A DNA stretch of 64,000 nt from Parcubacteria group bacterium (GTDB taxonomy: Bacteria > Patescibacteriota > Minisyncoccia > Moranbacterales > UBA2206), in assembly GCA_041659505.1 (NCBI GenBank), contig JBAZYF010000001.1, positions 189,274 through 253,273 on the forward strand, given 5' to 3'. The notes beneath the pieces were generated by a model that saw only the letters and a program-made list of their open reading frames with translations, did not search any database and was not told the DNA's origin. Position numbers and translations under genes: made by a program. Numbering within the stretch: the stretch's first letter is position 1; each line of letters begins with the position of its first letter. Below, piece by piece: positions 250 through 49,887 of the stretch.

Positions 250-1632
250 CTATTTCAACATCCAAACCGGAACCAGCACTAAATCTTTGTGCACCATAAA
301 ATCGTTTTTGGTAACGACAACTAACTTGTTACCACTTTTTTTTGCCAACTTCGTGGCAAATTTAAATTTATTGAGCGCAATCTGCTCGCGATATTTCACT
401 TCGACGTATTGATACGTTTTCGCGTCCAAAATATTATCCGTCGCTAAAAAATCCACTTCATCTTTCCGAACCCGCCGGAAAGAAACTGCGGAATAGCTTT
501 TTTGCAAAAGTTGCAAACAATAATTCTCCACCAAAAACCCCATTTTGTAGTTCCCTTGCGCCTCATCTGACCAAGCATAGAACGCCGAAACAAAATTGGG
601 ACTACCCAGGTAGATTTTTTTACCCAAGCGCCGGGATTTTCTGGCCGATTTAGTGAAATTATAGACAAGCTGAATGAGAAAACTTTCAGCGAAATAGTTG
701 AGGTATTTTTTGACCGTTTTTTCGTCGATGCCAATTTCGCGCGCGATGTTGCCCGTCTCAATCACCGATCCGATTTCACCGGCCAAAACTTGAAACAAAA
801 ATTTAAGTTCGTCCACTTTTTCCACTCCGAAAATTCGCACAATATCATATTCAATGGTTTTTTTGTAGATCGCATCGGTGAGATATTTTTTGACCACCGC
901 TAGATTATTTTCCCCAACGATTTCCGGAAATTGACCATAGCGAAGATAGTGTTCAAATTCTTTTTCCATTTCCGCGCCGTATTTTTGGAAAAATTTTTCT
1001 TGTGTTGATGAATTTTTCAAGACGAGGCATTGCCTCGTCTCTACAGCGGATGACTGATAACCGGCAAGCAGTTCTTTTTTGACCTTTTTTAATTCCAAAT
1101 ATTCTTGAAAATCCAACACCGGCAAAGAAAATTCATAGATCCGACCCACCAGACTCTCGGTGGTCTTTTTGCGTAAAAACAAAGAGGAAGAACCACTGAT
1201 AATGAATTTTATCCGCGCGTCAGTGTCATAATAGCGTTTCAAAATATGTTGCCATTTCGGGTTATATTGAATTTCATCAAGAAAAATATACAGCGAACCA
1301 CTTTTTGGTGCGCTTTTTTCCAAGTACGCATTCAGGTAATCCGCAATAGTAATCTTTCCGGGAATAATCGCTTCGTCAAAAGTCAAAAAAAGAATCGCCT
1401 CCGGTTTCACTGTCACGAGCAGTTTTTCAATCAATTGTTTCAGGAGAATCGTTTTTCCCGTACGCCGGAGTCCGACAATGGAAATGATCTGTTTTTTGGC
1501 TAAATAGGGCAAAATTTCACCAAACAACTTCCGCTTATAGCTGATATTTTTCAACTCGGCCAAAAACTCATCCGGCGAATCCCAGTGTTTGTTCTGTCGA
1601 TAAATTTCGGCTATAATAAAGGATTTTTTCAT
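250..1632 (-). CDS. COG1373-type AAA+ ATPase (AAA_14-like N-domain + DUF4143/PD-(D/E)xK-like C-domain), ATPase1
   Basis: Walker A GLRRTGKTIL, Walker B IFLDEIQY, C-terminal D...EVK motif (VDFLATD...YVEVKY); paralogous to 14180..15478 and 21356..22642. Confidence 0.8.
   Translation of the reverse strand: MKKSFIIAEIYRQNKHWDSPDEFLAELKNISYKRKLFGEILPYLAKKQIISIVGLRRTGKTILLKQLIEKLLVTVKPEAILFLTFDEAIIPGKITIADYLNAYLEKSAPKSGSLYIFLDEIQYNPKWQHILKRYYDTDARIKFIISGSSSLFLRKKTTESLVGRIYEFSLPVLDFQEYLELKKVKKELLAGYQSSAVETRQCLVLKNSSTQEKFFQKYGAEMEKEFEHYLRYGQFPEIVGENNLAVVKKYLTDAIYKKTIEYDIVRIFGVEKVDELKFLFQVLAGEIGSVIETGNIAREIGIDEKTVKKYLNYFAESFLIQLVYNFTKSARKSRRLGKKIYLGSPNFVSAFYAWSDEAQGNYKMGFLVENYCLQLLQKSYSAVSFRRVRKDEVDFLATDNILDAKTYQYVEVKYREQIALNKFKFATKLAKKSGNKLVVVTKNDFMVHKDLVLVPVWMLK
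1019..1046. repeat. palindromic element (PE) copy inserted in frame within the ATPase1 CDS (AGACGAGGCA-t-TGCCTCGTCTCTAC)
   Basis: inverted repeat seen directly; translates as ..AVETRQCLVL.. on the minus strand without breaking the frame. Confidence 0.7.
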
Positions 1633-1708
1633 ATTTTTACATTTATAGGTATTATTATTACCAATAATGTAACATCTATTAGGATGAGTGTCAATTTAGA
1701 TGTATTTT

Positions 1709-1760
1709 GCCAATCATTCAATCCAGAAAATCATGGTTTCGGACAGCTAATCCACACTCA
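1709..1760. repeat. conserved ~50-nt module copy in the ATPase1 upstream region
   Basis: GCCAATCATTCAATCCAGAAAATCATGGTTTCGGACAGCTAATCC; matches 189-240 and 15633-15666. Confidence 0.6.
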
Positions 1761-2003
1761 ACCCTTGCGGGGCTATTGGCCGTGATTAAATCACAAAACC
1801 GTCCAAATCTTCGGGCGAAATAAGTTGAAAAAGTTTGTCCTTTATTTGCTCTTTGATAAGCCTTTTATACATAATAGGCGTAATTTAGTGATTATGATTA
1901 CTATTTTACGCCTAACTATCTAGATGTTAAGCGCTTGAGCGTTACCATTGCCCCGAAAACACCTATAAATATTGCGTTTGATTTTTATGTTTTTTATTAC
2001 CCC

Positions 2004-2032
2004 GTAGAGACGAGGCAGTGCCTCGTCTAGAC
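2004..2032. repeat. PE copy GTAGAGACGAGGCA-g-TGCCTCGTCTAGAC
   Basis: perfect 10-bp stem with conserved GTAGAGACG flank. Confidence 0.75.
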
Positions 2033-2064
2033 GCCATAGGATTGCGCCATAACGTTTTTAGTCT

Positions 2065-2090
2065 TAGACGTGGCAGTGCCACGTCTCTAC
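2065..2090. repeat. PE copy, stem variant TAGACGTGGCA-g-TGCCACGTCTCTAC
   Basis: compensatory GAGG/CCTC to GTGG/CCAC stem change relative to other copies. Confidence 0.75.
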
Positions 2091-2135
2091 AATAAAATCA
2101 TGTCAATCCTTTAATCAGAAAAATCATAGTTCAGA

Positions 2136-8000: not shown

Positions 8001-8048
8001 ATGTCTGAACCACTGATTCGCACGTGATTTTCCTGATTACACGTGATT
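7994..8048. repeat. ~55-bp direct repeat, left copy (includes the LamG1 start codon and CACGTGATT x2)
   Basis: TTGGCATATGTCTGAACCACTGATTCGCACGTGATTTTCCTGATTACACGTGATT; second copy at 8428-8483 with ~3 mismatches. Confidence 0.8.
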
Positions 8049-8057
8049 AAGAGGAAC

Positions 8058-8447
8058 TTACTTAATATATCTTCTAACTTCCAAACTTTTTGCTCCGAAA
8101 TTAATCAATAGTCCTACTTTAACTTTATAGGCTTCAATGTAATTTATCAACTGAGCAACATTTACTTCTTCCAGTTTTGTGATGGCTTTTAGTTCTACCA
8201 TGATGTCACCATCAACTAGGAAATCGACTCTTCTTTTACCAATCATCGCGGATTCGTAAAAGATATCCATTTCTTTCTCTCTTTCAAATTTCAAATCTTC
8301 TTTGCTAAATTCTATTTCCAGTGCGCGTTGGTAGATTACCTCTTGAAATCCATTGCCTAGATACTGATGAACTTTTTGCGCACAGCCGATAATCTTTCCG
8401 GTTATGTCGGATTTGTAGTATTTATTGTTGGCATATGTCTGAACCAC
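8058..8447 (-). CDS. GxxExxY family protein (PD-(D/E)xK nuclease superfamily; family known from 23S rRNA intervening sequences)
   Basis: GFQEVIY matches the GxxExxY motif; ~125 aa size; C-terminal GLLINFG. ORF begins at a GTG that lies inside the direct repeat. Confidence 0.7.
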   Translation of the reverse strand: MVQTYANNKYYKSDITGKIIGCAQKVHQYLGNGFQEVIYQRALEIEFSKEDLKFEREKEMDIFYESAMIGKRRVDFLVDGDIMVELKAITKLEEVNVAQLINYIEAYKVKVGLLINFGAKSLEVRRYIK

Positions 8448-8483
8448 ATGATTAGCACGTGATTTTCCTGATTACACGTGATT
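8428..8483. repeat. ~55-bp direct repeat, right copy
   Basis: TTGGCATATGTCTGAACCACATGATTAGCACGTGATTTTCCTGATTACACGTGATT; it supplies the first ~6 codons of the GxxExxY ORF. Confidence 0.8.
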
Positions 8484-8543
8484 TAATTTAAGATTTCCCC
8501 AATCAGTGAAATCAGCGTAATCAGTGATAATCAGTGGTTCAGA
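8484..8543. repeat. short tandem AATCAGTG repeats plus partial LamG 3'-flank module (GTGGTTCAGACTACTGG)
   Basis: AATCAGTGAAATCAGCGTAATCAGTGATAATCAGTGG; GTGGTTCAGAC is the reverse complement of TGTCTGAACCAC in the adjacent direct repeat. Confidence 0.55.
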
Positions 8544-13868: not shown

Positions 13869-13884
13869 ATTTTATTATTCCCCC

Positions 13885-13910
13885 GTAGAGACGAGGCACT
13901 GCCTCGTCTT
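13885..13910. repeat. PE copy GTAGAGACGAGGCA-c-TGCCTCGTCTTGG, ~20 nt upstream of the LamG2 ATG
   Basis: on the gene strand: ...CGTCTCTACgggggaataataaaatttgaaaATG. Confidence 0.75.
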
Positions 13911-13945
13911 GGGCATTATTTTTCACCTCGTCTTGGGTTAAATTT
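13900..13945. promoter_or_regulatory. direct-repeat array of CCTCGTCTTGG half-sites (~27-bp spacing, 3 copies including the PE arm) in the LamG2 leader
   Basis: cctcgtcttgggcattatttttcacctcgtcttgggtta; parallels the 4-copy array at 21148-21250. Confidence 0.5.
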
Positions 13946-13991
13946 TTCTGCGTTTTGCTGTTGTTGGTTTGCGCATTGACGTTGTTAGTTC

Positions 13992-14017
13992 TAGACGTGG
14001 CAATGCCACGTCTCTAC
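13992..14017. repeat. PE copy, stem variant TAGACGTGGCA-a-TGCCACGTCTCTAC
   Basis: same GTGG/CCAC variant as 2065-2090. Confidence 0.75.
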
Positions 14018-14049
14018 AATTAGAATATAACGTATTAGAATATGCATAT

Positions 14050-14179: not shown

Positions 14180-15478
14180 TTATTTTAAATCTAAAAGCCA
14201 TTTCCAAACCGGAACTATTTTGATTTTTTTGCCTTTTATCTCTCGCTTCTCTTCCTGATTCTCGGTGATAATCAGTCCATTTTTAAGCTTAAACTTTTCC
14301 ATCGCTTCCAAGAGTCCCGCCAATTCCCTTTTTTCGTTATTATTATCCAACACCTTCGTCACCTGAATCGCTTCTGTTATTTTTCGTCCTTCTCTGACGA
14401 CAAAATCACATTCATGTTTTTCAAAATGGTAATAGATTTCTTTTCCCGCTTCTAAAAGGCCCAAAAAAACTGTGTTTTCCAAAAAACGGCCAAAATTTTC
14501 ACTAAACGAAAATGAGACTGCACTGATAAAGCTATTGTCGATCGCATAGGCTTTTTTGGGATAATTTTCCTGCTTTTTAAGCGAGTATTGATAGTTAGAC
14601 AGTTCGAACAAGAGAAAAGATTTTTCAAAAAATCCGATATATTCCTTGACGGTCTTATCATTCATCTGCAAAAAATCCGCTAGTGCGTTATAGCTGTACT
14701 TTTGGCCGATGTTGGAAAAAAGGTAGAGCAAAAGATTTTCGATTTCCCGAGTTTTTTTCACTTCAAAGCGCGGAACAATATCTTGATAGAGAATGTTTTT
14801 GTAATAATTGATTAGAATTTCTTGCCTGATTTCCTTCTTCTTTTCCAGGACTATTTCCGGAAAACCGCCAACTTTCAAGTATTCTCCGAAAACTTTTTTT
14901 AATTTTCCTTCGTTTCTTATCTGCTCCACCGCGCTACGCACTTCAATTTTTCTGGCGTCCGCTATTTCCGCCAAATTAAACGGGTAGATCTTTTTGGCAA
15001 TCGATCGGCCGGAAAGTAGTGTAGCCATCTCTGCCGAAAGCAGCCGAGAATTTGATCCGGTAATAAAAAATTTTACCCCGCCTTTCTCATAGAGACTTTT
15101 GACAAAAACTTGCCAATCGGAAAAAAACTGAACTTCATCCAGAAAAACAAACACTTTGCCCTTTGGTTCGACCAGCGCCAAATATTCCTCGAAAATTTTC
15201 GCAAGATTTCCCGGATCATTCTTGAAGCGATTAAGCAAGGGCGATTCCAAATTAAGTAGCAAGATATTTTTTGGTTTGACCTTTTTTTCTTGTATCAAAA
15301 ATTCGATCAATTGCCTGGCAACGGTTGATTTCCCGCTTCTTCGGACGCCCACCAAAGCCACAATTTGCCTGATATTGAGATATTTGACAAGTTCCACGAG
15401 AATTGCCCGCGGAAAGCCAACCTCCAGCGCTGTGCCCGCCCAATGCCTATTTTGCTCAACGATAAATTTTTCAAACAT
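14180..15478 (-). CDS. COG1373-type AAA+ ATPase with DUF4143/PD-(D/E)xK-like C-domain, ATPase2
   Basis: GVRRSGKST Walker A, VFLDEVQF Walker B, C-terminal HECDFVV...EAIQVTK. Confidence 0.8.
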   Translation of the reverse strand: MFEKFIVEQNRHWAGTALEVGFPRAILVELVKYLNIRQIVALVGVRRSGKSTVARQLIEFLIQEKKVKPKNILLLNLESPLLNRFKNDPGNLAKIFEEYLALVEPKGKVFVFLDEVQFFSDWQVFVKSLYEKGGVKFFITGSNSRLLSAEMATLLSGRSIAKKIYPFNLAEIADARKIEVRSAVEQIRNEGKLKKVFGEYLKVGGFPEIVLEKKKEIRQEILINYYKNILYQDIVPRFEVKKTREIENLLLYLFSNIGQKYSYNALADFLQMNDKTVKEYIGFFEKSFLLFELSNYQYSLKKQENYPKKAYAIDNSFISAVSFSFSENFGRFLENTVFLGLLEAGKEIYYHFEKHECDFVVREGRKITEAIQVTKVLDNNNEKRELAGLLEAMEKFKLKNGLIITENQEEKREIKGKKIKIVPVWKWLLDLK

Positions 15479-15507
15479 ACGATTCTATTACGAATTAACC
15501 ACTGTTT

Positions 15508-15597: not shown

Positions 15598-15623
15598 AGA
15601 CGAGGCAATGCCTCGTCTCTACA
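15598..15623. repeat. PE copy TAGACGAGGCA-a-TGCCTCGTCTCTAC
   Basis: inverted repeat; preceded by the conserved block GTTGTTGTTTTGCGCGTTGCTGTTTTCAGG also seen upstream of LamG2 and LamG3. Confidence 0.75.
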
Positions 15624-15666: not shown

Positions 15667-18600
15667 CTACTGGAAGTTGAGCGCGCTAGAATTATTATAC
15701 AATTGTTTCACTTGCTCGGCGGTGAGGGCGTAGTTGAAGATTTTGACTTCGTCGATTTTTCCTCCAAACGGATAACTAGAATATGTATTATCACCCATAA
15801 AAACATCGCCTGACGAATCATCAATCCTGGTGCCGCTTCCCCTGTTAGTATATGCAGCTACTATCTCTTCTCCGTTTATAAATAAATGAACACTATTAGC
15901 GCCTATCCCGCCGGAATAGACACCACAAACATACTGCCAGCTATTAAAGACTATTAAATTATCTGGCGTTTCCCTTAAAGCAATATAGTCACTCGTCGTA
16001 TTTGCAATTGACATGCCTAAGTGATTAGTATTCCAGATATACAAATCCCACCCAAAATAAGAGAGGCCATGTTTTGCAACAATCAAGGCATCAGTTTTAG
16101 TCGGATAAATCCAGGCGCAAGCTGAAAATGTTGCCATATTATCCAATGCTACTGGCGATCCCGCATTCACATAATCCCCCACCCCATCAAAATTCAAACT
16201 GGCGCCGTATTTTCCGGTTCGTCCGTTGTACCAGGGGGTGTCGGCGTTGGCACTGCAAGTGCCGGCGGTTGTTTGACCAGAGGCGCCCAGATTGATCGTC
16301 CCGTCATTACGATTCAAACTTTCATCATGCACCGTCGCGCCTTGGCATTCATCAAAATTCCACTGCGCCACCGGTTGCCCTTGGTTATATTCCCAAGCAA
16401 TTTGCGCCGGAGTGCGGGCGTAGTTGTAGATGCGGACTTGGTCGATTTGGCCGGTCCAATAATCTGCGCTAGTCGCTGGATCTTTTCCAACCGTAAGATT
16501 ATAAACACCCGAAACGACATCTAGGGTTTGGGCGACCGGAGTGGCCGCGGATATGCCATCAACATAAATTCTAAGATAACTGCCATCAAATGTTCCAGCA
16601 ACGTAGTGCCACGAATTATCATTGTAGCCATTTTTATCGCTCACAATATATATATAGCTACTTGAATCATGTAATTGCAAAGCAAAATCACCGGGATTAT
16701 CACCATTGGCAAATAACATATATCCATTTCTGTCAGTATCCCAGTTAGCATTTCCGACTATTGCTGGCCAATTTACTGTACTAGTAGTAAATTTAACCCA
16801 AGCCGAAACTGTTCCAGTGTGGGTCAGCTGGATTGATGGATCATTTCCCAGATCCGCATAATCGTCCACCCCATCAAAGCTACACGCTGTCCCCGCTTTT
16901 CCCGGTACACTACAATCCATTCCGGTTGTATTGGCGCCGTAATGTGTTGTGCCGTTGTTGCCGTTGCCTGATGTGTCATAAATCGTTTTTGCATCGCCTT
17001 TGACTTTTTCTTCCATCTTCCATTCCCCCACCGGCGCGGCGCAAGCGGTTGTGTCGCCCGGCACGCAATATTCTCCTCCGGCGGAATTGGTCGGCGCGCC
17101 AGTCGAAGCGGCCGTGCCCGCCGAACCCCACTGCGCCGAAGCACCGGAGTTGTAATCGGTTTTAATTTCGTCTTCGGTGAGAGCGTAGGGGTAGATTTTG
17201 ACGTCGTCAAGCTGTCCACCGAAATAATTTATCGGAGGATCATATGAGTTATTTCTGCCAATATTTAAATCATCCGATGAATATTGTAATGAACCTCCTG
17301 CCCCATAACCATTTGCCGAATAAATTGTTGCGATTTCCTTACCATCAATATATGTTTTTGAATCTGAAGCATCTCCCCGCACTGGAGAAAATGTCACCAC
17401 CAGATGGTGCCAATTATTATCTGGATATGGGAGTGTGCCGCATGGCGTTTCCCAATAGGGATAACCGTTGTTTGTTTGTATTTCAAAATGCGTTCCTCCT
17501 GCATATAGACACGTAGTGGAGAAAGAATAACTCTTTCCTGAAGTAGTGCCGTAGGCCTTATTTATCATCGTTCCACCCCCCCCATTTTGTTTTATCCAAG
17601 TAGAAAGTGTAAGTGCAGCCGGACGTAGGGCTGTACTATCCGGCACGCTGACATAATCATTCACCCCATCAAAACTCAAAGCCTTGCCATTTTTGCCGTC
17701 ATTAGTCCAAGTCGGCGCGGATGAGCCGACGCCCAGATTTGCATTCGTAGAGACGCATTGCGATGCGTCTCTACAACCCAGCCCGGAATTATGCGCCACA
17801 GAGCCGTAGCCTTCGTTGAAATCATAATTTACAATTGGTTGGCCATTGCCACCTCCGCCTGCTGGCTCCGGCGTGCCAAGCATATCCTCTAAAATCTGCT
17901 GTTGGGTGCGGGCGTAGTTGTAGATTCTCACATCATCCATTTTTCCTTTGAGCGCTTCATCCCAACTTGAGGTGCCAAAAACAAAACCGGCATTATCATT
18001 AGCAATTGGCGCTTCATTGCCCGTACCGCTAACCCAGCTTCCACTTACCGGGTTTCCATTCAAAAAAGCCTTGATGGAACTGCCTTGCCCGAAAGTATAT
18101 TCGAGGGTGAGATACGACCACTCATTCAATGGCACACCAGCACTAGCTACCTGCCACGACGACCAATCAGAATTATCCACTCGACGATAATAAAGAGTCG
18201 GATAAGCTCCAATTAGCGCAAAGCCATAGTTTTCATTCAATGTGGCTCCTTTGAAAATAAGATTGCTCTCACCGGCATATGCTTCGGGATTGACCCAAAG
18301 GGAAATTGTAATCGTTTTGCCCAATTGGAAATCATAGGGGCTGTTAGTGCCGGAATCAGGAAAATTCGCTTCATCGGGAACGCTACTGTCGAAAACTAGT
18401 GCACTGCCATATTTTCCCGTTGTCCAAACCGGGTCCTCGGCTTCGGCGGAACTGGTCGTACCCAAAACTCCTTCTCCAGTCGGTTGCTCGGAATTATAGA
18501 AATTCTGACCGGTTTTTTCATCAAATTTCCAATAGGCTACCGGGCCGGGTGCCCACTGGTAGAGTTTTTTAATTTCAGCGGGCGAAAGCGCGCGGTTGTA

Positions 18601-21162
18601 GATGCGGGTTTCGTCGATTTGGCCATCAAAAAAATAAGTAGTCATTTGGCCAATTTGAGCGCCGTTTCCCGAATCAGCTCCAGTATTTATATCTGGAACA
18701 CCTGTTGAAATTCTTGTACCCTGACTCACGCCATTAACAAAAACTTCTTGCAATTTCGTATTACGTTTAAATGTGGCAACAATATGATACCAAGTATCTG
18801 CTTCCATTAACTTAACATTATCAAAATCATCACCATAAAAACCAAAGGTTAGATTATTACTATTACCTCTAATCCCTAATGAAACGCGCCTATCAGTGCC
18901 ATTTGCATCGCCTATGTCAAAAAACCATTGATATCTATCAAGAGTATCTATTTTAATCCATGATTCAATTGAAAAATCGCCCGTATCAAAAGTATTAATA
19001 TATGGTGCTTGCACATAATCATCCACCCCATCAAAACTCCCCCCATTCCCAAATTTTCCTCCGGCGGTCGTGACGCCTCCGGCGGATGTTCCGTTATTAT
19101 TGTTGCCACTGGCATCTTTCACTTCTCCGCTCGTGCCGTTCCAACTCGCTTCGTCCATTTTCCAATAGCCGACCAGGCCGTCGGTCAGCCATTTTGTTGA
19201 CTCTGAACCGAAAGCAGCCGACGCGCCTTGGGGGGCGCTTTGGCTTGCCAAGCCTGCATTATAATCCTGCAAAATCTGCGCTTGCGTGCGGGCGTAGGGG
19301 TAGATTTTAACTTCATCGATATAGCCGGGAAAAAATTCGTGGTAAGAGCCACTTGAATAATAGGCTCCGATGATGACCTGCTGATCATTGACAACATTTA
19401 TACCCCCGCCATATGATCCATTATATTGAGAATCAAACTTGCCATTAATATAAAGCTTCTGATAACCAGTCGTCGCATCGTATGTTGCAGACATATAGTA
19501 CCACTTATTAATTTCCAGTGTCCCACCGACTAAATAGTCTCCGGTTATTACTGGCTGCTCTGTTTCATCCAGAGTGGTATAATAATTGAAAGTATCCAAT
19601 CCTTTATTTACAACAGTCTTAAAATTCGCATTATCCGCTGTCAATTTGATCCAATGACTGACAGTATAGCCATTGGGTGAATCCAGTGAATTACTATCTG
19701 GAATTGTCGCATAAGCGCTGGTTCCGTTGAAATATAGACACCCTCCACTCACACACTCACTCTCCGGCTTCCACGTCGCACCGGTGATGGTGCCGTTGTT
19801 TTTGTTTGATGTTTCGTCGTGCGCCGTTGTGCCTTGGCCTTCGTCGAATGACCAATAGCCGACCGGTCCGCCGGGGCTAGTTTCCTGCTTTCCCGAAACA
19901 GTCAAAAACGCCAATGGATTATTCTGATTAGCATATTCCGTGGCGATCCATTCGGGGTTGCGGACAGTGTTGGAAATTTTAACTTCTTCAATGCTTCCTG
20001 GAAATTGACTTGTATAACCCTGCCTCGCTCCAATAACAAACCCGTTACCAATGTGCCAAGGATCATCAATATCAGTCGGTCCCGCAACAAGATTGCCATT
20101 GATATATAACTTTGCCATATTATCAACGTCTATTGTCGCACAAACATATTGCCACTGGTCAAGTATGATACTGCCATTTGCACTATTTAGAACGCCTCGA
20201 TTATTATAAATGTTTAAATAATAAACCCCACCATCATTACCCATATTAAACTCGAAATCAGCATCACCAATAAATTGAGACATCCAACTATCATCCGCTT
20301 GTGGCTTTATCCAAGCGCAACCCGTTATCGGATAATCATCCAAGTCAACAGCTGTATCCACATAATCATCCCCCCCATCAAAATCCAACCCTTTCCCCAC
20401 TTTCGCGTCAACCGAATCCCCACTCGTCATTGTGCCATTACTTGTTCCATTGTTCGCGTTAGCGGTGGAGTCCAGCATTTGCGGAGCCGTGCCCGAAGGA
20501 TCCTGGTTCATATGTTGGACCATTTTGTAGTTTCCATCCCACACATTCATTTTGTCTTGTTGGCTAGTGGCGGTAGCATTGCCATAGTAAAGATAAATTT
20601 CCGTATCTTTGGCTTGAGTGAGATTGGGTAATTTTACCCAAGCAATGAGGGCGCCAGTGCCGGAGGTGTAGGATTCGATTTCGTGCGAGAGTTTTTTTCC
20701 GGTGGAATCGGTGAATACCAAATCATCGCCGTCTGTTTGAGCACCGGTGATGAGATTGGTGTCCGTGATGGAAACTAGCACCGGAAAGTTTTGCAACTCC
20801 CCTGCCACTTGGGATTTATTGATGGTGATTTTTTTGCGAAATCCCCAAGTGTCGTTCCACCAGGAGGCTTGGGTGTTTCTTCCTGAGAAGAAAAAATAGA
20901 TGGGTAAAATTATGAGGACGAGAAGAATGGCAAGGGCTACTTGCCTGTAAGCCACCCAGTGGCGCAAGCTTGCGCCACCGGGTGGCTTCGGAGAACCGGA
21001 AGTTAAGGTCGGACCTTTTGGGTGCCTAAGGTCCGACCTTAGTTTTTTCAAAAATCTGGCAAATTTAAACAGGCCACGGAGGATGGTTAGCATTGTGCGT
21101 TGGAATTTTTGTTTTAGGGTTGGCATTTTTGAATTTTTTGTTTCCCTGTAGAGACGAGGCAC
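15667..21162 (-). CDS. giant cell-surface protein LamG3: TM + DUF2341 + six LamG domains. The ORF-caller start is a GTG inside a PE; the likely true start is the ATG at ~21126 (MPTLKQKFQR...)
   Basis: N-terminus after residue 12 matches LamG1/2. DUF2341 signature ASWWNDTWGFRKKITINKSQV...NFPVLV...YLYYGN. Six LamG motif repeats; shared C-terminus. Confidence 0.85.
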   Translation of the reverse strand: MPRLYRETKNSKMPTLKQKFQRTMLTILRGLFKFARFLKKLRSDLRHPKGPTLTSGSPKPPGGASLRHWVAYRQVALAILLVLIILPIYFFFSGRNTQASWWNDTWGFRKKITINKSQVAGELQNFPVLVSITDTNLITGAQTDGDDLVFTDSTGKKLSHEIESYTSGTGALIAWVKLPNLTQAKDTEIYLYYGNATATSQQDKMNVWDGNYKMVQHMNQDPSGTAPQMLDSTANANNGTSNGTMTSGDSVDAKVGKGLDFDGGDDYVDTAVDLDDYPITGCAWIKPQADDSWMSQFIGDADFEFNMGNDGGVYYLNIYNNRGVLNSANGSIILDQWQYVCATIDVDNMAKLYINGNLVAGPTDIDDPWHIGNGFVIGARQGYTSQFPGSIEEVKISNTVRNPEWIATEYANQNNPLAFLTVSGKQETSPGGPVGYWSFDEGQGTTAHDETSNKNNGTITGATWKPESECVSGGCLYFNGTSAYATIPDSNSLDSPNGYTVSHWIKLTADNANFKTVVNKGLDTFNYYTTLDETEQPVITGDYLVGGTLEINKWYYMSATYDATTGYQKLYINGKFDSQYNGSYGGGINVVNDQQVIIGAYYSSGSYHEFFPGYIDEVKIYPYARTQAQILQDYNAGLASQSAPQGASAAFGSESTKWLTDGLVGYWKMDEASWNGTSGEVKDASGNNNNGTSAGGVTTAGGKFGNGGSFDGVDDYVQAPYINTFDTGDFSIESWIKIDTLDRYQWFFDIGDANGTDRRVSLGIRGNSNNLTFGFYGDDFDNVKLMEADTWYHIVATFKRNTKLQEVFVNGVSQGTRISTGVPDINTGADSGNGAQIGQMTTYFFDGQIDETRIYNRALSPAEIKKLYQWAPGPVAYWKFDEKTGQNFYNSEQPTGEGVLGTTSSAEAEDPVWTTGKYGSALVFDSSVPDEANFPDSGTNSPYDFQLGKTITISLWVNPEAYAGESNLIFKGATLNENYGFALIGAYPTLYYRRVDNSDWSSWQVASAGVPLNEWSYLTLEYTFGQGSSIKAFLNGNPVSGSWVSGTGNEAPIANDNAGFVFGTSSWDEALKGKMDDVRIYNYARTQQQILEDMLGTPEPAGGGGNGQPIVNYDFNEGYGSVAHNSGLGCRDASQCVSTNANLGVGSSAPTWTNDGKNGKALSFDGVNDYVSVPDSTALRPAALTLSTWIKQNGGGGTMINKAYGTTSGKSYSFSTTCLYAGGTHFEIQTNNGYPYWETPCGTLPYPDNNWHHLVVTFSPVRGDASDSKTYIDGKEIATIYSANGYGAGGSLQYSSDDLNIGRNNSYDPPINYFGGQLDDVKIYPYALTEDEIKTDYNSGASAQWGSAGTAASTGAPTNSAGGEYCVPGDTTACAAPVGEWKMEEKVKGDAKTIYDTSGNGNNGTTHYGANTTGMDCSVPGKAGTACSFDGVDDYADLGNDPSIQLTHTGTVSAWVKFTTSTVNWPAIVGNANWDTDRNGYMLFANGDNPGDFALQLHDSSSYIYIVSDKNGYNDNSWHYVAGTFDGSYLRIYVDGISAATPVAQTLDVVSGVYNLTVGKDPATSADYWTGQIDQVRIYNYARTPAQIAWEYNQGQPVAQWNFDECQGATVHDESLNRNDGTINLGASGQTTAGTCSANADTPWYNGRTGKYGASLNFDGVGDYVNAGSPVALDNMATFSACAWIYPTKTDALIVAKHGLSYFGWDLYIWNTNHLGMSIANTTSDYIALRETPDNLIVFNSWQYVCGVYSGGIGANSVHLFINGEEIVAAYTNRGSGTRIDDSSGDVFMGDNTYSSYPFGGKIDEVKIFNYALTAEQVKQLYNNSSALNFQ
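17747..17774. repeat. PE copy inserted in frame inside the LamG3 CDS (GTAGAGACGCAT-tgcg-ATGCGTCTCTAC)
   Basis: encodes CRDASQCVST. Paralogs LamG1/LamG2 have ..SLAGNLGVGSS.. here with no palindrome; flanking DNA aligns on both sides. Confidence 0.8.
20951..21040. repeat. two further palindromes inserted in frame in the LamG3 N-terminal region: 36-bp palindrome centred on AAGCTT, and a paired AAGGTCGGACCTT/AAGGTCCGACCTT
   Basis: adds ~35 aa (LRSDLRHPKGPTLTSGSPKPPGGASLRHWVAYRQV) absent from LamG1/2/4 between the basic leader and the TM helix. Confidence 0.7.
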
Positions 21163-21172
21163 TGCCTCGTCT
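21148..21172. repeat. PE copy GTAGAGACGAGGCA-c-TGCCTCGTCTTAGG, ~20 nt upstream of the LamG3 ATG
   Basis: gene strand: ...CGTCTCTACagggaaacaaaaaattcaaaaATG. Confidence 0.75.
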
Positions 21173-21250
21173 TAGGTTAATATTTTCACCTCGTCTTGGA
21201 CATTATTTTTCATCTCGTCTTGGGTTAATATTTTCACCTCATCTTGATGT
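21173..21250. promoter_or_regulatory. iteron-like array, ~4 copies of TTAATATTTTCACCTCGTCTTGG (~27-bp period)
   Basis: ttaatattttcacctcgtcttggaca / ttatttttcatctcgtcttgggttaa / tattttcacctcatcttgatg seen directly. Confidence 0.55.
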
Positions 21251-21310
21251 TAATTTTTCTGCGTTTTGTTGTTGTTATTATTGGTTTGTACGTCGACGTG
21301 GTTCTTTTCC

Positions 21311-21336
21311 TAGACGCCCCAACGGGGCGTCTCTAC
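21311..21336. repeat. PE copy, stem variant TAGACGCCCC-aa-CGGGGCGTCTCTAC
   Basis: different inner stem (GCCCC/GGGGC) with the same outer TAGACG/CGTCTCTAC. Confidence 0.75.
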
Positions 21337-21355: not shown

Positions 21356-22642
21356 TCAGACGGTTTCCAAAATCCACCGCCAGGCCGGAATAATTCGAAT
21401 TTTTTTGCCCTTGATTTTGATTTCCTCTTCCTGATCCATCGTGATGATTGTTCCGGTTTTCAATTTGAATTTCTCCAGCGCTTCAAGAAGACCATCAATT
21501 TCTCGTTGGTGATTCTTTTCATTTAGATTATAACACACTTGGTAGGCTTTTTTTATCTTCAAGCCGTCTTTCACCACAAAATCACATTCATGCTTTTCGC
21601 TGTAATAGAAAATTTCTTGTCCGCTTCGCAGGAGTTCCAAAAAAACCAGGTTTTCCAAATAGCATCCGCTATTTTCTGAAAAAGCAAAACCGATCTTGCC
21701 GACCAGTCCGCTATCAACGCAATAGATCTTGCGCCGGTTGGCATTTTGCTTGTGCAGGGAATAATCAAACTTTTTCAAGTCATAAAACAAATGGGCCTCT
21801 TTCAAAAGTTCCACATATTCTTTGGCGGTATGCTCATGGATATGAAGCATCTTAGCCAAACTGTTGTAGCTAAAAAGGCGAGCGGTGTTGCTGATTAAAA
21901 AATAGGCGGCTTGCTTGAGATTGTATGAATCCCTGATTTCATTATTATCAATGACGTCTTTTAGGATTATCGTTTGATAGTAGGCCTCGAGGACTGCGGC
22001 ATCACCTGTCATGACCGCTACCGGAAAACCTCCTTGACGCAAATATTGCTCAAACAAATTAGCCAGCTTATTTTTGAATGCGAAGTTTTTGGCATAGGAG
22101 GAAAAGAATTCTTGTTTTTTCGCCGTCAAAAATTCCTTGTAGGAAAAAGGAAAGACTGTTTGGGCAAAGTAACGTCCGGACAGGCGCGAAATATATTTTC
22201 CGGCAAGCAAATTCGCGTTAGAACCGGTAATGAAAATTTTTTGGAAAACCCGCGCGTCATATTTCGCCTTAACCCATTTTTCCCAAAACTGGATATTTTG
22301 CACTTCGTCCAGAAACAGATACTTGATTTTTTTGCCGGTTAGCGTTTCAGCTATTTCGATTATTTCGTCTAATTTTTCCGCTTTTTTATAGAAAGATAAA
22401 AAGACCGGGTTATCAAAATTAACCAGCAGGATTTCTTCGGGATGAGTTTTGCACTTAGCCACCAGCTCACTGATCAATAAATTAAAAATTACCGACTTCC
22501 CACTTCTTCTCACACCGGCAATCACTTCAATAAAATCGCTCTTCAGTCTGACTTTTTCCGTGGCCGCTCGAAAAACATAGCCCGCTTCCGCTTGTGTTCG
22601 CCAATGGCTGTTTTGCTCTAAAATTATATTTTTTAAGTCCAT
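21356..22642 (-). CDS. COG1373-type AAA+ ATPase with DUF4143-like C-domain, ATPase3
   Basis: GVRRSGKSV Walker A, LFLDEVQN Walker B, C-terminal HECDFVV. Confidence 0.8.
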   Translation of the reverse strand: MDLKNIILEQNSHWRTQAEAGYVFRAATEKVRLKSDFIEVIAGVRRSGKSVIFNLLISELVAKCKTHPEEILLVNFDNPVFLSFYKKAEKLDEIIEIAETLTGKKIKYLFLDEVQNIQFWEKWVKAKYDARVFQKIFITGSNANLLAGKYISRLSGRYFAQTVFPFSYKEFLTAKKQEFFSSYAKNFAFKNKLANLFEQYLRQGGFPVAVMTGDAAVLEAYYQTIILKDVIDNNEIRDSYNLKQAAYFLISNTARLFSYNSLAKMLHIHEHTAKEYVELLKEAHLFYDLKKFDYSLHKQNANRRKIYCVDSGLVGKIGFAFSENSGCYLENLVFLELLRSGQEIFYYSEKHECDFVVKDGLKIKKAYQVCYNLNEKNHQREIDGLLEALEKFKLKTGTIITMDQEEEIKIKGKKIRIIPAWRWILETV

Positions 22643-22702
22643 AATATATTATGTAATTTATTATATAATTGCATTATATACTATGCAATTTATAATGTCA
22701 AC

Positions 22703-22728
22703 CGCGTCCGAAAAATCATTGTTTCAGA
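22703..22728. repeat. partial LamG 3'-flank module downstream of the LamG4 stop
   Basis: CGAAAAATCATTGTTTCAGACTACTGG. Confidence 0.55.
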
Positions 22729-27990: not shown

Positions 27991-27994
27991 GTCT

Positions 27995-28339: not shown

Positions 28340-28515
28340 AAATTTAAATCTTAATTTTGAATTTTTAAGCTCGAATTTTGAAATAATTTTTTAATTTTCA
28401 AATGTTTCAAAATTAATTCATTCGAGTTTGTTTCAAAATTAAGAATTCGAAATTCAAAATTAACTTAGTTTATTCGAGTTTGTTTCAAAATTCAAAATTC
28501 GAAATTCAAAATTAA
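28340..28515. repeat. AT-rich array of AATTTTGAA / TTCAAAATT repeats including a ~48-bp tandem duplication (28411-28455 / 28459-28510)
   Basis: seen directly; similar repeats at 27961-28020 flank the other side of the Avd-like gene. Confidence 0.7.
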
Positions 28516-46500: not shown

Positions 46501-49500
46501 GATTTGTCCCGATGATCCGGCCGCGGTGATTTGCATTGCTCCGACTCCATTGCCATAAACAATTCCATTGGGCGTGAAAGTAGTCGCGCCGGTTCCGCCG
46601 TTGGCCACTGGGAGCGTACCAGTCACATGGCTAGCCAGATCAATTTGAGCAAAGGTAATCGCTTGACCGATGATTGACGCATAGGTTTGGCCGGCGAGCG
46701 TGACTGGGGCGTGGATGTCGCTAGTCAAAGCTAGTGTGCCAGAGGTATCGGGGAAAGTATAGGTGCGGTTAGCACTCAAGTCGCCCACATCTACTGTGCC
46801 ATAGAACGCTCCGCCATTGGATTCCATGATTTGCAATTCACTGCCGGCATTAGCGAGTACGATGTCAAATGCGCCGGTTTGGTTCCAATTGGAAGTCAGG
46901 CTATCCAGCGCAAACGACGCCGTCCAACCTTCTCCGGCCACGCCGGAAATGGCAATTCCATTGCCACTTGTTGCACCGAGCAGATAATTTCCCACCGTGT
47001 CAGTTCCTAGTGCGACTGAATTGGGCTGAATCGTTGACGCGCCCGAAGCCGCAATAAAAACATCGCCGGTCATTGGCACAAATACTGGCACCCCGCTGGA
47101 ATTGGCCACGACAAACTGCGCTTCCGTTCCTGCTGCTGTAATGTTAATTCCACTCGTGCCATTACCGTAGAGAATGCCGTTGGTGGCAAAAGTCGCTCTG
47201 CCTGTTCCACCGTTGCTGATTGGCAACGTACCCGTCACATCAGTTGTCAAATCAATCTGCCCGCGCACTATGTCTTGCCCGGCAAGCGTGATGTAGTCAT
47301 AAAGACCGCTCACACTCAAATTCGTCTGAGTAATAATTGTTTGCCCGGTGCCATTGCCAATCACCAATTGATCATTGTCCACGTCCCATTCAATCCGGCC
47401 TTCAGCGGTTGGTGTCGGCGTGGCTGATTGAACCAGTGTAAGATTTGATCCGGAAATCGTTCCGCCGGAAATCGTCAGCGCATCAGAAACATAGGCATCC
47501 GTAACAGGAGTCGCATTCCAGATACCGGCCGTCACTGTTCCCAGCGAACTGATAGTTGATGTATTGCGCCATTGTAAAGCAGATCCGGTATTGCTCAAAA
47601 ATTGACCCGCTGATCCAACAGCCATTCTTTGCCATTTGATGATTCCCCCGCCTTGATTAGTTCCCACAATCATATCGCCCTCCAAAGGCGAAGCAGCCAC
47701 GACATCCGGATGAGAAAGCGAAAGTAAATTATGCGCTCCGACAAAGGGGGAATTTTGCCAGCCAGGCGCTCCGCCCAAAACACCAAAAATTTGTCCGTTC
47801 GATCCAATCGGCAAACGTGTCAGCGCTCCGCCGGAAGAATAATATAGCAGATCGCCTGGAACATAACTAGACAGTCCTGTTCCGCCATTGCCAGTTGGCA
47901 ATGTGCCCGTCACATCCGTGCCTAAATCAATCGCGTTTAGTGTAAGCACTTGATTGGCATCGATTGAGAGATAATCCAAAGAACCAGCCAACGTGACTGC
48001 GCTGTGACCAAGTGCCGACAAATTACCCCATGCCGGTGTACCATCGGCAGAAATTGATAATACTTGGCCGATTGTTCCCGCGGATATCTTAGAGAAAGTT
48101 GAGCCGGAAGAATAATACAGCATATCGCCGGAAGTAAAAGCAGAAAGTCCCGTGCCTCCACTGGCAATTGGCAAAATGCCTTGCGTTTCGCTTGCCAGAT
48201 CAACTTTTCCGACCGTGAATTTTTGGCCAGAAAGCGTGAGAAACTTGGAGCCGGAAATGGTAAATTTCAAACGTTTGTCGTTGCCCAAAAGTAGCTGATT
48301 ACTCCCCGTTCCGGTTGGCAAATTGGAAATGGCAATTTTGCCTTGCGCGTCCAGAGCAACAATGTCCCCGGCCGAGACGCCAACTTTTTTGCCATTGAGG
48401 AGCAGTGAATTTCCGGCATTGAGCGCATAAAGCGGAGTGGCCAGTCTTTTTCTCGGTGCCATCTCGCTATCCTCTCCCACGCGGATGCCCAAAAAGAACT
48501 GACCAGCTTGGATGGTTGTGAAAATTGGCAAGTCAGTGACTTGTCCCAGGTTAACGCGGAAAATACCATCCTTAACCGTGACAGTTTGCGTTTCTTCCCA
48601 AACGCGATTGGCGCTGTCTGTGTCGGAAGGATAAGCGTCAATTTGGGTGCGATCTGTGTCATAGATGGCAAAACGCACAGCATAGCTTCCGTCCTCTACT
48701 TGCCCGTTGGCGCCGGAAAGCGCTCCGGTCAATTGAATAATTCTCGGTTTTGTGACAATGGTTGTCGCGTCACTCGCATTTTGCGTCGTCGTATTGTCCG
48801 ACGCAACAATCGCTTCCGCCAAAACCATTTCTTGTCCTCCTTCGCTAAAGCTACGGCGTGACGAGCCCGAATTGGATTTGGCAATAGTTTTTTCATCTCC
48901 CATCGGCGCATACGCCAAATCTTGTCCCCCTGCCAAATTTCCTTCGCTACGCTGAAGCTCTTTGACACGCCGTAGTTCATCAACGGAGGAGGTTAGCGAA
49001 AGCGAGGCCAACTGATATTTTTCCGGCAAAGCGTAGGCCACTGTCGCGAAAAGCAAAATAATTCCAACCACCAAAGCCGGATATTTAGCATTGACAAGAA
49101 TTAAATTTTTCTTGGCTCGGAGTGCCAGAGAATTTTCTTGCCTTTTTTCTTTCGAAGCCAATTCAAAATTATGCGCGGATTTTTCTTTTTTGACAGAAAG
49201 ATTTTTTTTGCCTTTGAAAAAAATTGAAATTATTTTTTCTGATGATTTTAGTAATTTTAGATTCGCAAAAATTTGGCGGATAATTTTTAGCAAAAACCAA
49301 GCCAGAAAAATACCGGAAATCAGAACCGCAAATGAGACTGCAAGTTGTTCAATCAGCACCAAATCTAGTTTTTCGCCGGAAAAAATCGCACCGGCAAAAA
49401 TGGCTTGTTTGCGGGAATTTTTACCCGTGCAGACGAGGCAGTGCCTCGTCTCTGCCGCTTTTTTGCCACCACAAATAGCCCTTTCCCAAACTTGGGTTAA

Positions 49501-49575: not shown

Positions 49576-49714
49576 TTTTTGTTTTATTTTCCCATGAATT
49601 TACTTCTGAATTATACCATAAAAAAAAAGATTGCAATAGGGCAAAATGGCAAAGTTATCCACAGGTGGAAATTGAGAAAAAATTGGTTGAATTTTTGATA
49701 TATTTATCGCATCC

Positions 49715-49742
49715 GTAGAGACGAGGCACTGCCTCGGCTTGG
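49715..49742. repeat. PE copy, degenerate right arm (GTAGAGACGAGGCA-c-TGCCTCGGCTTGG)
   Basis: seen directly. Confidence 0.65.
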
Positions 49743-49781
49743 TCACATTTCCAATCTATTTTTTGCAAAAATACCTAGCCT

Positions 49782-49829
49782 GTAGAGACGCCTGCCTGTC
49801 CGGTAGGCAGGCAATTCAATGCGTCTAGC
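49782..49829. repeat. long PE variant GTAGAGACG-[GCCTGCCT-gtccggt-AGGCAGGC]-caattcaatg-CGTCTAGC
   Basis: conserved outer arms with a different 8-bp inner hairpin. Confidence 0.6.
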
Positions 49830-49862
49830 GGTTTTAATAATCGGGTAAATTTTACACAAAAA

Positions 49863-49887
49863 AAGACGTGGCAGTGCCACGTCTCTA
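49863..49887. repeat. PE copy AGACGTGGCA-g-TGCCACGTCTCTAC
   Basis: GTGG/CCAC stem variant. Confidence 0.75.

What the first reader, a model, noticed from the sequence alone, without database searches (positions are those of the whole stretch)
1019..49887. Locus-specific palindromic element family (GTAGAGACG-stem-CGTCTCTAC), 13 copies, three inserted in frame in coding sequence
Every intergenic interval of the LamG/ATPase/giant-gene locus carries 1-3 copies of a 25-48-bp hairpin element. The outer arms TAGAGACG/CGTCTCTA are conserved. The inner stem varies but stays complementary (GAGGCA/TGCCTC, GTGGCA/TGCCAC, GCCCC/GGGGC, GCAT/ATGC, and a long GCCTGCCT/AGGCAGGC variant). Three copies sit inside ORFs without breaking the frame: ATPase1 (1019-1046), LamG3 (17747-17774, where paralogs LamG1/2 lack it) and the giant-gene N-terminus (49427-49455). 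That is the signature behaviour of Rickettsia palindromic elements. None occur in the housekeeping half of the window. The compensatory stem changes imply selection on the hairpin (DNA or RNA) itself.
Basis: seen in the sequence. Interest (0 to 1): 0.85.

Follow-up and report, generated by a model that had tools for sequence, protein, structure and literature searches.

The report
GTAG-footed REP palindromes, RAYT-type
The hairpins are copies of a known kind of tiny bacterial repeat (REP elements, mobilised by a dedicated RAYT transposase) that occurs in many bacterial phyla, so the finding is real but is an ordinary member of a described family rather than something peculiar to this locus.

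Summary
The window has 13 copies of a palindrome with core AGACG-NGGCA-N-TGCCN-CGTCT: 10 exact copies against 0.05 expected by chance. Three copies lie in frame inside genes, and orthologues or paralogues of those genes lack them. The interpretation "locus-specific" is wrong. The full element is a 29-bp palindrome, GTAG-AGACGNGGCANTGCCNCGTCT-CTAC. One scan of reference genomes hit its 120-stretch limit, with hits in Patescibacteria, Omnitrophota, Acidobacteriota, Verrucomicrobiota, Bacteroidota, Chloroflexota and others. In those genomes the only protein family that recurs next to the hairpin is a 180-230 aa HUH/Tyr enzyme. It is related to the E. coli REP-associated tyrosine transposase (RAYT) and is often bracketed by two copies with the GTAG feet facing outwards (a REPtron). 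Its motifs, the "double-foot" REPs and the in-frame REP copies inside the transposase gene itself match TnpA_REP subclass 2.4 / RAYT Group 4 (Quentin 2018). That paper's tables already list GTAGAGAC...GTCTCTAC REPs. The window, probably a Moranbacteria genome, holds no RAYT. About half its copies came from tandem duplication of the LamG/ATPase module, leaving roughly six insertion events. Verdict: a new member of a known kind, of modest interest.

The parts
1020..1044 (-). REP copy (core AGACGAGGCATTGCCTCGTCT plus CTAC foot) inside the ATPase1 CDS. It is read in frame as AVETRQCLVL.
   Evidence: Absent from 21 orthologues. DNA fold -10 kcal/mol, z -5.9.
2004..2028 (+). REP copy (GTAG foot plus core, A-T inner pair). 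Right member, in the direction of transcription, of the doublet between the LamG1 stop and ATPase1.
2066..2090 (-). REP copy (core with T-A inner pair plus CTAC foot). Left member of the same doublet. The whole 2004-2090 unit can fold as one long hairpin.
   Evidence: Fold of 1998-2096: -23.3 kcal/mol, z -5.3.
13885..13909 (+). REP copy (GTAG plus core), about 30 nt upstream of the LamG2 ATG. Member of the doublet 13885-14017. It abuts a 24-nt tandem array at 13902-13948.
13993..14017 (-). REP copy (core TGGCA/TGCCA plus CTAC). The other member of the doublet. It lies downstream of a promoter-like site at 14078-14050.
15598..15622 (-). REP copy about 45 nt after the LamG3 stop. It is a half doublet with the homologous spacer retained. 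The paralogous position in 1690-1765 is empty.
17747..17774 (.). Double-foot REP GTAGAGACGCATTGCGATGCGTCTCTAC inside LamG3, read as CRDASQCVST. Net +6 aa against paralogues.
   Evidence: z -6.8. The related CATTGCAATG inner stem is seen in L025, L055 and L058.
21148..21172 (+). REP copy (GTAG plus core) just upstream of the LamG3 ATG. Member of the doublet 21148-21336. It abuts a 4-copy 24-nt tandem array at 21165-21259.
21312..21336 (-). REP copy with a swapped inner stem (CCCCA/GGGG) plus CTAC foot. Paralogous to 13993-14017.
   Evidence: CCCC..GGGG variants are also seen in L022 and L075.
49427..49455 (.). REP copy with degenerate feet (GTGC...CTGC) inside the giant gene, residues about 41-51, read as AAETRHCLVCT.
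49715..49739 (+). Degenerate REP copy (GTAG plus AGACGAGGCACTGCCTCGGCT, one arm mismatch).
   Evidence: Weak fold, z -1.4.
49782..49827 (+). Long composite copy: GTAGAGACG, an inner hairpin GCCTGCCT/AGGCAGGC, an 8-nt asymmetric insert, then GCGTCTA.
49864..49888 (-). REP copy after gene 49913-50992. It is the only copy followed by a T-run and so the only terminator-like one.
1690..1765 (-). Empty paralogue of the post-LamG insertion site: ...GATTGGCA|AAATACATCTAAATTGACA, without a REP.

Best explanation
The hairpins are REP elements (repetitive extragenic palindromes) of the GTAG-footed class, in the 'long/double-foot' form GTAG-AGACG-[variable inner stem]-CGTCT-CTAC. They occur singly and as inverted doublets with the feet facing outwards (REPIN-like, 87-189 bp).

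The likely mechanism, inferred from the E. coli TnpA_REP system, is as follows. The palindrome folds on single-stranded DNA. A single-copy RAYT elsewhere in the genome (an HUH/Tyr Y1 transposase of TnpA_REP subclass 2.4 / RAYT Group 4) binds the hairpin and reads the GTAG foot. It then cuts and rejoins the DNA, copying single REPs or whole doublets to new sites.

The hairpin must fold to be recognised, so the arms stay complementary while the inner stem is free to vary.

Two of the three reading frames on each strand of the palindrome are free of stop codons (VETRxCLVS and RDEAxPRLY). Copies whose net length change is a multiple of three therefore survive in flexible linkers of proteins.

In this window about six insertions were followed by tandem duplication of the LamG/ATPase module, giving 13 copies.

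Shown here: the family, its feet, its covariation, the filled and empty sites, the in-frame insertions, and the RAYT association in other genomes. Inferred: that a RAYT exists in this genome and moves these copies.
For: - The 29-bp consensus with GTAG/CTAC feet was recovered from 120 loci although the feet were not in the search pattern. 121 of 137 copies have a foot and 37 have both.
- Core positions 6 and 16 are complementary in 126 of 137 copies and use all four pair types.
- Unbiased clustering of all ORFs in the 120 loci gave, as its joint-largest cluster and the one lying next to the hairpins, 180-230 aa proteins. Their invariant motifs are PNHxH, WQ and YIxxNP.
- These proteins hit NCBIfam REP_Tyr_transpos at E 1e-12 to 1e-16 and PDB 4ER8, E. 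coli TnpA_REP, at 3e-5.
- More than 1,630 database clusters are related, many named 'REP element-mobilizing transposase RayT'.
- REPtron layout: in L046, L068 and L026 the order is GTAG-REP, 13-17 nt, RAYT, 9 nt, REP with the foot outwards (CTAC in L046 and L026; GTAC in L068). L080 and L075 have REPs on both sides of the gene.
- REPs lie in frame inside RAYT genes between the HuH and Tyr motifs, for example L098 and L085 'CRDEALPRLY'.
- All of this matches the published description of subclass 2.4 (PMC6006769). That paper's Table S1 lists GTAGAGACGCACGGCCGTGCGTCTCTAC and similar REPs.
- In other genomes 24 of 137 copies lie inside long open frames, always in the two stop-free frames.
- Within the window there are filled and empty paralogous sites. 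The four doublets share a spacer yet sit in two different gene contexts. The three intragenic copies are missing from orthologues or paralogues.
Against: - No RAYT gene lies in the 64 kb (tblastn), and the rest of the source genome could not be examined.
- About 40 kb from related Moranbacteria contigs carries no REP, so presence is patchy.
- The RAYTs score below NCBIfam's 80-bit equivalog cut-off (46-60 bits). Pfam Y1_Tnp hits are below its gathering score for five of the six proteins that hit, and a seventh, truncated protein had no hit.
- Transposition of REPs by a RAYT has never been shown in vivo for any system (PMC8266576 and PMC6006769, as quoted).
- Net length changes at the three coding sites (+2, +4 and +6 aa) are shorter than a whole REP, so the events were not simple 29-bp insertions.
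- Many of the window's copies are explained by duplication rather than by transposition.
Confidence: 0.85

Rival explanations
1. The hairpins are local cis-regulatory RNA structures (terminators, 3'-end stabilisers or 5'-leader structures) of the LamG/ATPase operons. They multiplied only because the gene module was tandemly duplicated, and they are not mobile.
For: - Several copies sit at paralogous positions with homologous flanks and spacers.
- Copy 49864-49888 is followed by a T-run and scores as a terminator.
- Copies lie just after LamG stops or between promoter-like sites and LamG starts.
- Rare mismatches in other genomes are mostly G-T/C-A, which an RNA stem would tolerate.
Against: - Only 1 of 13 copies has a T-tract.
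- The same 29-bp sequence occurs beside unrelated genes in about ten phyla and brackets RAYT genes.
- Three copies are inside coding sequence, at sites where orthologues lack them.
- An empty paralogous site exists.
- Rfam has no matching family.
- Host co-option of individual copies is not excluded and is compatible with the main explanation.
Confidence: 0.1
2. The element is a miniature inverted-repeat transposable element (MITE) or a Rickettsia-palindromic-element-like unit. It would be moved in trans by a conventional (DDE) transposase rather than by a RAYT.
For: The doublets (87-189 bp) have inverted terminal hairpins, like terminal inverted repeats (TIRs). In-frame insertion into genes resembles RPEs.
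Against: - No target-site duplication is evident at the filled versus empty site.
- The conserved module is the 21-29 bp self-complementary hairpin with a GTAG foot, not a TIR pair.
- Spacers are window-specific.
- The only recurrent neighbouring gene is a Y1 HUH enzyme.
- No recurrent DDE transposase family stood out in the ORF clustering, although only the RAYT and ATPase clusters were identified.
Confidence: 0.04

Closest known systems
GTAG-footed REP / REPIN elements with RAYT (TnpA_REP) subclass 2.4 of Quentin et al. 2018 (= RAYT Group 4 of Bertels et al. 2017); 'double-foot' REPs
   Same: - A 5' GT[AG]G foot at the base of a 9-13 bp stem, often with the complementary C[TC]AC on the other side.
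- Outer stem GTAGAGAC(G), as in the published REPs of Chloroflexus aggregans and two further genomes in the same table (strain codes AesuA01, EmolA01).
- Inverted dimers with the feet facing outwards.
- RAYT motifs NH[IFV]H / WQ / YIxNNP.
- REP copies in frame inside the RAYT gene and inside other genes.
- A patchy, multi-phylum distribution.
   Different: - The exact inner stem (NGGCA-N-TGCCN) is not in the published tables.
- The hosts here include Patescibacteria/CPR, Omnitrophota, WOR-3 and Calditrichota, which the 2013-2018 surveys of complete genomes did not cover.
- No RAYT was seen in this window.
E. coli REP / TnpA_REP (PDB 4ER8), RAYT Group 2
   Same: An HUH/Tyr enzyme that recognises a folded REP plus a GTAG foot on single-stranded DNA. 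This is the mechanistic model used here. It is the best PDB match to the RAYT profile.
   Different: Only distant sequence similarity (E 3e-5, and below the NCBIfam equivalog cut-off). E. coli REPs are bulged, single-footed and species-specific.
Rickettsia palindromic elements (RPE)
   Same: Palindromic repeats that are tolerated as in-frame insertions in protein-coding genes.
   Different: From general knowledge, RPEs are about 100-150 bp and restricted to Rickettsia, and no RAYT is known for them. Di Nocera 2013 places Rickettsial REPs in the CGTC-tagged families, not the GTAG-tagged ones. No sequence relationship was found.
Cyanobacterial small dispersed repeats (Elhai et al. 2008) and GTAG-12/15/16 REPs (Di Nocera 2013)
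   Same: Very short (21-29 nt) hairpin repeats found in intergenic DNA and in frame in genes.
   Different: The Elhai paper was not available in the library, so any sequence identity to those families is my recollection only and was not tested.

Membership tests
GTAG-tagged REP (repetitive extragenic palindrome) | Short (20-40 bp) stem-loop-forming palindrome | tested here: met
   9-12 bp perfect stems with 3-4 nt loops. DNA folds of -9.9 to -14 kcal/mol, z from -3.4 to -6.8.
GTAG-tagged REP (repetitive extragenic palindrome) | Conserved GT[AG]G tetranucleotide at the foot of the stem | tested here: met
   11 of 13 window copies have GTAG or CTAC at the exact position. So do 121 of 137 copies in other genomes, although the foot was not in the search pattern.
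GTAG-tagged REP (repetitive extragenic palindrome) | Many copies per genome, mostly extragenic, far above chance | tested here: inconclusive
   The window has 10 exact cores against 0.05 expected, and 10 of 13 copies are intergenic. Several MAGs have more than 10 hit loci each.
GTAG-tagged REP (repetitive extragenic palindrome) | Frequent inverted dimers (HH type / REPIN) | tested here: met
   Doublets at 2004-2090, 13885-14017 and 21148-21336 have the feet facing outwards and share a spacer. The same layout is seen in Acidobacteriota and Verrucomicrobiota loci.
GTAG-tagged REP (repetitive extragenic palindrome) | A cognate RAYT gene flanked by the same REPs (REPtron) in the same genome | not testable with these tools
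   Met in other genomes: L046, L068, L026, L080, L075, L098.
TnpA_REP subclass 2.4 / RAYT Group 4 system | Protein motifs NH[IFV]H, WQ and YIxNNP; length about 190 aa | tested here: met
   Alignment A2 has invariant P-N-H-x-H, W, and Y-x-x-x-N-P in YI(R/I/L)(N/D)NP. The Q after W is present in 7 of 8 sequences. Lengths are 180-237 aa as aligned, compared with Table 1 of PMC6006769.
TnpA_REP subclass 2.4 / RAYT Group 4 system | Double-foot REPs, and REP copies inserted in frame within tnpA_REP between the HuH and Tyr motifs | tested here: met
   37 of 137 copies are double-foot. L098, L085 and L022 RAYTs carry CRDEALPRLY-type or VETP-type segments between the motifs.
E. coli-type REP-associated tyrosine transposase (NCBIfam NF047646 equivalog) | Score at or above the curated 80-bit cut-off | tested here: not met
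   46-60 bits. These proteins are related to, but not equivalogs of, the E. coli enzyme.
Rickettsia palindromic elements | A 100-150 bp element of the Rickettsia RPE sequence families | tested here: not met
   The unit here is 21-29 bp with a GTAG foot. There is no Rfam hit. Only the in-frame behaviour is shared.
Intrinsic (Rho-independent) terminator | GC-rich stem immediately followed by a U-run | tested here: not met
   Only copy 49864-49888 qualifies, that is 1 of 13.

The most novel reading that the evidence does not exclude
A REP-RAYT system with an essentially identical 29-bp recognition hairpin is shared by about ten phyla, including the reduced-genome Patescibacteria (CPR) and Omnitrophota. 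This would mean that REP-RAYT systems spread between phyla, contrary to the prevailing picture of vertically inherited, lineage-specific REPINs. In these episymbionts the elements would preferentially seed and reshape variable surface-protein loci. They would add peptide cassettes to linkers of giant and LamG proteins, and supply repeats for paralogue duplication and recombination.
Probability: 0.2. Interest if true: 0.5.

Novelty: new member of a known kind. Interest (0 to 1): 0.3.

Why it matters
The finding mainly explains itself. A striking set of hairpins turns out to be REP elements of a published class, so annotators should mask them and should not treat the 'VETRxCLVS' and 'CRDEALPRLY' peptides as protein motifs.

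Two points are modestly useful:
- This REP/RAYT subclass is abundant in candidate-phyla-radiation bacteria and Omnitrophota, which earlier surveys of complete genomes did not cover.
- The same outer stem and foot are kept across phyla while the RAYT proteins are only 34-45% identical. That makes it a convenient system for studying how RAYTs recognise REPs.

Tried and rejected
- An Rfam scan of the whole window found nothing at gathering thresholds.
- A literature search for the literal sequence strings returned only unrelated primer and vector matches.
- I tested whether the hairpin travels with the AAA_14/DUF4143 ATPase or the LamG genes. Only 4 of 120 loci have the ATPase and none has a LamG homologue, so the idea was rejected.
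- I asked whether phages carry the element. There were 4 hits in 2.9 million viral contigs. Only one has a GTAG foot; the others look like chance terminators.
- I tried to locate the source contig through an exact-protein look-up of Ddl. It is not on record.
- I looked for syntenic orthologous loci through ATPase1 orthologues P0001 and P0012. They sit in unrelated contexts and carry no REPs, so no orthologous-site comparison of the intergenic copies was possible.
- The doublet spacers have no match in other loci, so only the hairpins are conserved across genomes.
- L072 was initially counted as RAYT-bearing. I dropped it because the tblastn match covers little more than the REP-encoded peptide.
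- Terminator reading: only one copy fits.
Full report
**1. Observation**

The window (45% G+C) carries a block of minus-strand genes:
- three AAA_14/DUF4143 ATPases (250-1632, 14180-15478, 21356-22642);
- four LamG-repeat proteins of 1,750-1,950 aa;
- a 7,019-aa ORF (28516-49575);
- housekeeping genes (lgt, ddl, an aminotransferase and others) beyond 49.9 kb.

The word TAGAGACG occurs 14 times against 0.61 expected. The perfect 21-bp palindrome AGACG-N11-CGTCT occurs 10 times against 0.05 expected. A tolerant hairpin scan adds the GCAT-stem copy at 17747-17774 and a one-mismatch copy at 49719-49739. With the long composite copy at 49782-49827 the total is 13, as reported.

All copies fold much better than shuffled sequence, apart from the degenerate copy at 49708-49744 and, less clearly, the long copy's inner hairpin.

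- The strict two-arm pattern TAGAGACG...CGTCTCTA matches only once. Most copies carry the outer GTAG/CTAC on one side only.
- Three of the eight intergenic intervals of the locus (8001-8543, 22643-22728, 27991-28515) have no copy.

**2. The family is not local**

The hits come from MAGs of:
- Patescibacteria (Moran-, Falkow-, Komeili-, Buchanan-, Magasanik-, Wirth-, Sacchari- and Peribacteria);
- Omnitrophota, Acidobacteriota, Verrucomicrobiota and Bacteroidota;
- Calditrichota, WOR-3, Chloroflexota and a few Proteobacteria bins.

Several assemblies contribute more than 10 loci each.

The flanks were not part of the pattern, yet they show the full consensus GTAG-AGACGNGGCANTGCCNCGTCT-CTAC. Of 137 copies, 121 have GT[AG]G and/or C[TC]AC at the exact position, and 37 have both.

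The two free stem positions are complementary in 126 of 137 copies, against 48 +/- 5 in shuffles. All four pair types are used. Most exceptions are G-T/C-A.

Other inner stems on the same outer stem also occur in these loci: CAAAATTTTG, CATTGCAATG, CGATTAATCG and CCCC..GGGG. They include relatives of the two rare variants in the window.

A caveat: some hits are on short contigs of MAG bins, whose taxonomic assignment may be wrong. However, hits also lie on contigs of 100-300 kb assigned to Terriglobia, Verrucomicrobiia, Parcubacteria and Chloroflexota.

**3. What travels with it**

The window's own genes do not travel with the hairpin. An AAA_14 ATPase is near it in 4 of 120 loci, and LamG or the giant protein in none.

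I clustered all ORFs of the 120 loci without prior assumption. The joint-largest cluster, and the one lying next to the hairpins, consists of 180-230 aa proteins. Features of these proteins:
- invariant P-N-H-x-H, W (followed by Q in 7 of 8) and Y-I-x-x-N-P;
- NCBIfam REP_Tyr_transpos at E 1e-12 to 1e-16, which is below the 80-bit equivalog cut-off;
- weak Pfam Y1_Tnp hits;
- E. coli TnpA_REP (4ER8) as the best solved relative;
- more than 1,630 database clusters related to one of them, many named 'REP element-mobilizing transposase RayT', from Falkowbacteria, Omnitrophota, Gracilibacteria, Roizmanbacteria, Emticicia and others.

Gene layout around these genes:
- In L046 (Verrucomicrobiia), L068 and L026 (Acidobacteriota) the gene is bracketed within 9-17 nt by two copies of the hairpin, with the feet facing outwards.
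- L080 (Falkowbacteria) and L075 (Patescibacteria) have REPs on both sides of the gene.
- L098 has one copy upstream.

Several of these genes carry the palindrome in frame between the HuH and Tyr motifs, for example 'CRDEALPRLY'.

**4. Comparison with the literature**

GTAG-footed REPs are described by Di Nocera et al. 2013 (PMC3733652). That paper covers their HH dimers, their occurrence inside genes, and REPtrons.

Quentin et al. 2018 (PMC6006769) define TnpA_REP subclass 2.4, which equals RAYT Group 4 of Bertels et al. 2017. Its defining features are:
- motifs NH[IFV]H / WQ / YIxNNP and a length of about 194 aa;
- 'long' and 'double foot' REPs (GT[AG]G plus C[TC]AC);
- REP copies inserted in frame within tnpA_REP between HuH and Y;
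- a patchy distribution in Cyanobacteria, Bacteroidetes and various other phyla.

Every one of these features was seen here.

Their Table S1 lists GTAGAGACGCACGGCCGTGCGTCTCTAC (Chloroflexus aggregans), GTAGAGACAAGGCATGCCTTGTCTCTAC and GTAGAGACAGGGCATTGCCCTGTCTCTAC. The NGGCA-N-TGCCN inner stem itself is not listed.

The element is therefore a member of a described REP/RAYT class, in hosts that those surveys did not sample.

**5. Anatomy in the window**

*Doublets.* Read in the direction of transcription (minus strand), the intergenic copies form doublets of the form GTAG-hairpin-spacer-hairpin-CTAC:
- 2090-2004, after LamG1;
- 14017-13885 and 21336-21148, between an ATPase and the next LamG start;
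- a half unit at 15622-15598, after LamG3.

All four share a homologous spacer of about 30 nt. That spacer has no match in other genomes. The unit therefore exists in two different gene contexts, which argues that the doublet was copied as a whole.

*Filled and empty sites.* The post-LamG flank recurs four times. Two copies are filled (after LamG1 and LamG3). Two are empty (after LamG4, and a fourth copy at about 1690-1765). For example, GATTGGCA|AAATACATCTAAATTGACA is empty, and GATTGGCA|TGATTCCTGTAG-REP-...CAGGGG|AAAATAGATTAAATTGACA is filled.

*Inner-stem changes between paralogues.* Paralogous copies differ by a compensatory pair (2066 has T-A, 15598 has A-T) or by a wholesale inner-stem swap (13993 has TGGCA, 21312 has CCCCA).

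*Event count.* I count about six insertion events: two doublet contexts, three intragenic copies and the 49.7-49.9 kb cluster. The rest arose by duplication of the LamG/ATPase module.

*Enrichment.* With so few independent events, the absence of copies from the 14-kb housekeeping part is not significant evidence for targeting. This is my inference from interval lengths.

**6. The in-frame copies**

- LamG3: the 28-bp double-foot palindrome is read as CRDASQCVST. It adds a net six residues at a linker where LamG1, LamG2 and LamG4 align without it.
- ATPase1: AVETRQCLVL lies in the variable linker between AAA_14 and DUF4143. Twenty-one orthologues at 48-79% identity, mostly 458 aa and several named Moranbacteria/Moraniibacteriota, lack it. 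The window protein is 2 aa longer there.
- Giant protein: three homologues conserve the N-terminus upstream of the hairpin (M..L.HSL.LF.ST...VKNLLTP.WER). The annotated start is therefore real and the copy is coding. Those homologues lack AAETRHCLVCT. They and shorter N-terminal homologues carry other REP-derived peptides a little further on (VETRFIASRD, VETPQRGVST, DAMNRVST).

Across other genomes, 24 of 137 copies sit inside long open frames, with up to 967 and 1,087 open codons on the two sides. They always use frames VETRxCLVS or RDEAxPRLY. The third frame starts with the TAG of the foot.

**7. Function**

Only copy 49864-49888 is followed by a T-run. Promoter-like TTGACA-17-TATAAT sites lie at 22701-22673, 15542-15514 and 14078-14050. 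These positions place some REPs in 3' regions and the 14017-13885 doublet in a probable 5' leader.

Host use of individual copies is possible, but it is not what defines the family.

**8. Verdict**

The explanation is a REP/REPIN family served by a subclass-2.4 RAYT.

The mobile-palindrome reading, the in-frame reading and the hairpin-selection reading are supported.

The missing piece is the RAYT of this particular genome, which lies outside the 64 kb if it exists.

The element is a new member of a known kind, of modest interest.

Noticed in passing
window 27995-28339 (minus strand), interval 27991-28515: A small gene for a four-helix-bundle protein (TIGR02436, E 1.5e-24), the kind found in 23S rRNA intervening sequences. 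It sits between the giant gene and LamG4 and is preceded by a tandem direct repeat of about 50 nt (TTAATTTTGAATTTCGAATT.TTGAATTTTGAAACAAACTCGAAT).
   Followed up: partly
window 8058-8447 (minus strand), interval 8001-8543: A small gene for a GxxExxY protein (TIGR04256, E 1.1e-38) between LamG2 and LamG1. It is bracketed by a direct repeat of about 55 nt (..AATCACGTGTAATCAGGAAAATCACGTGC.AATCA.GTGGTTCAGACAT), which suggests it is itself an inserted cassette.
   Followed up: partly
window 13902-13948 and 21165-21259: 24-nt tandem arrays of 2 and 4 copies whose first unit is the arm of the adjacent REP (CCTCGTCTTGGG/TTAGG...). One REP arm has been reiterated with about 15 nt of spacer, possibly by slippage or an aberrant rejoining event.
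   Followed up: partly
window 61117-61149: A perfect 16-bp-stem palindrome, AAGGCAATCGGAAATTTAATTTCCGATTGCCTT, in the housekeeping half. It is unrelated to the REP family and has only a single copy in the window.
   Followed up: no
window 22701-22673, 15542-15514, 14078-14050 (minus strand): Near-consensus sigma-70-type promoter-like sites (TTGACA-17-TATAAT, 12 of 12 and 11 of 12 matches) lie upstream of ATPase3 and ATPase2 and upstream of the REP doublet before LamG2. The ATPases may therefore be separate transcription units.
   Followed up: no
P0122, P0124, P0126 (homologues of the giant protein N-terminus); L082:3266, L009:3434: Homologous giant proteins in other Moranbacteria carry several different REP-derived peptides clustered after the conserved LPEKYQLANL motif. 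In other CPR loci REPs sit in the middle of ORFs of more than 700-2,000 codons. Large surface proteins seem to be frequent hosts of in-frame REPs.
   Followed up: partly
L035:3-23, L061:2-22, L072:59-79: Several REP copies lie at the very ends of MAG contigs, as expected if the repeat breaks short-read assemblies. Copy numbers in MAGs are therefore probably underestimates.
   Followed up: no
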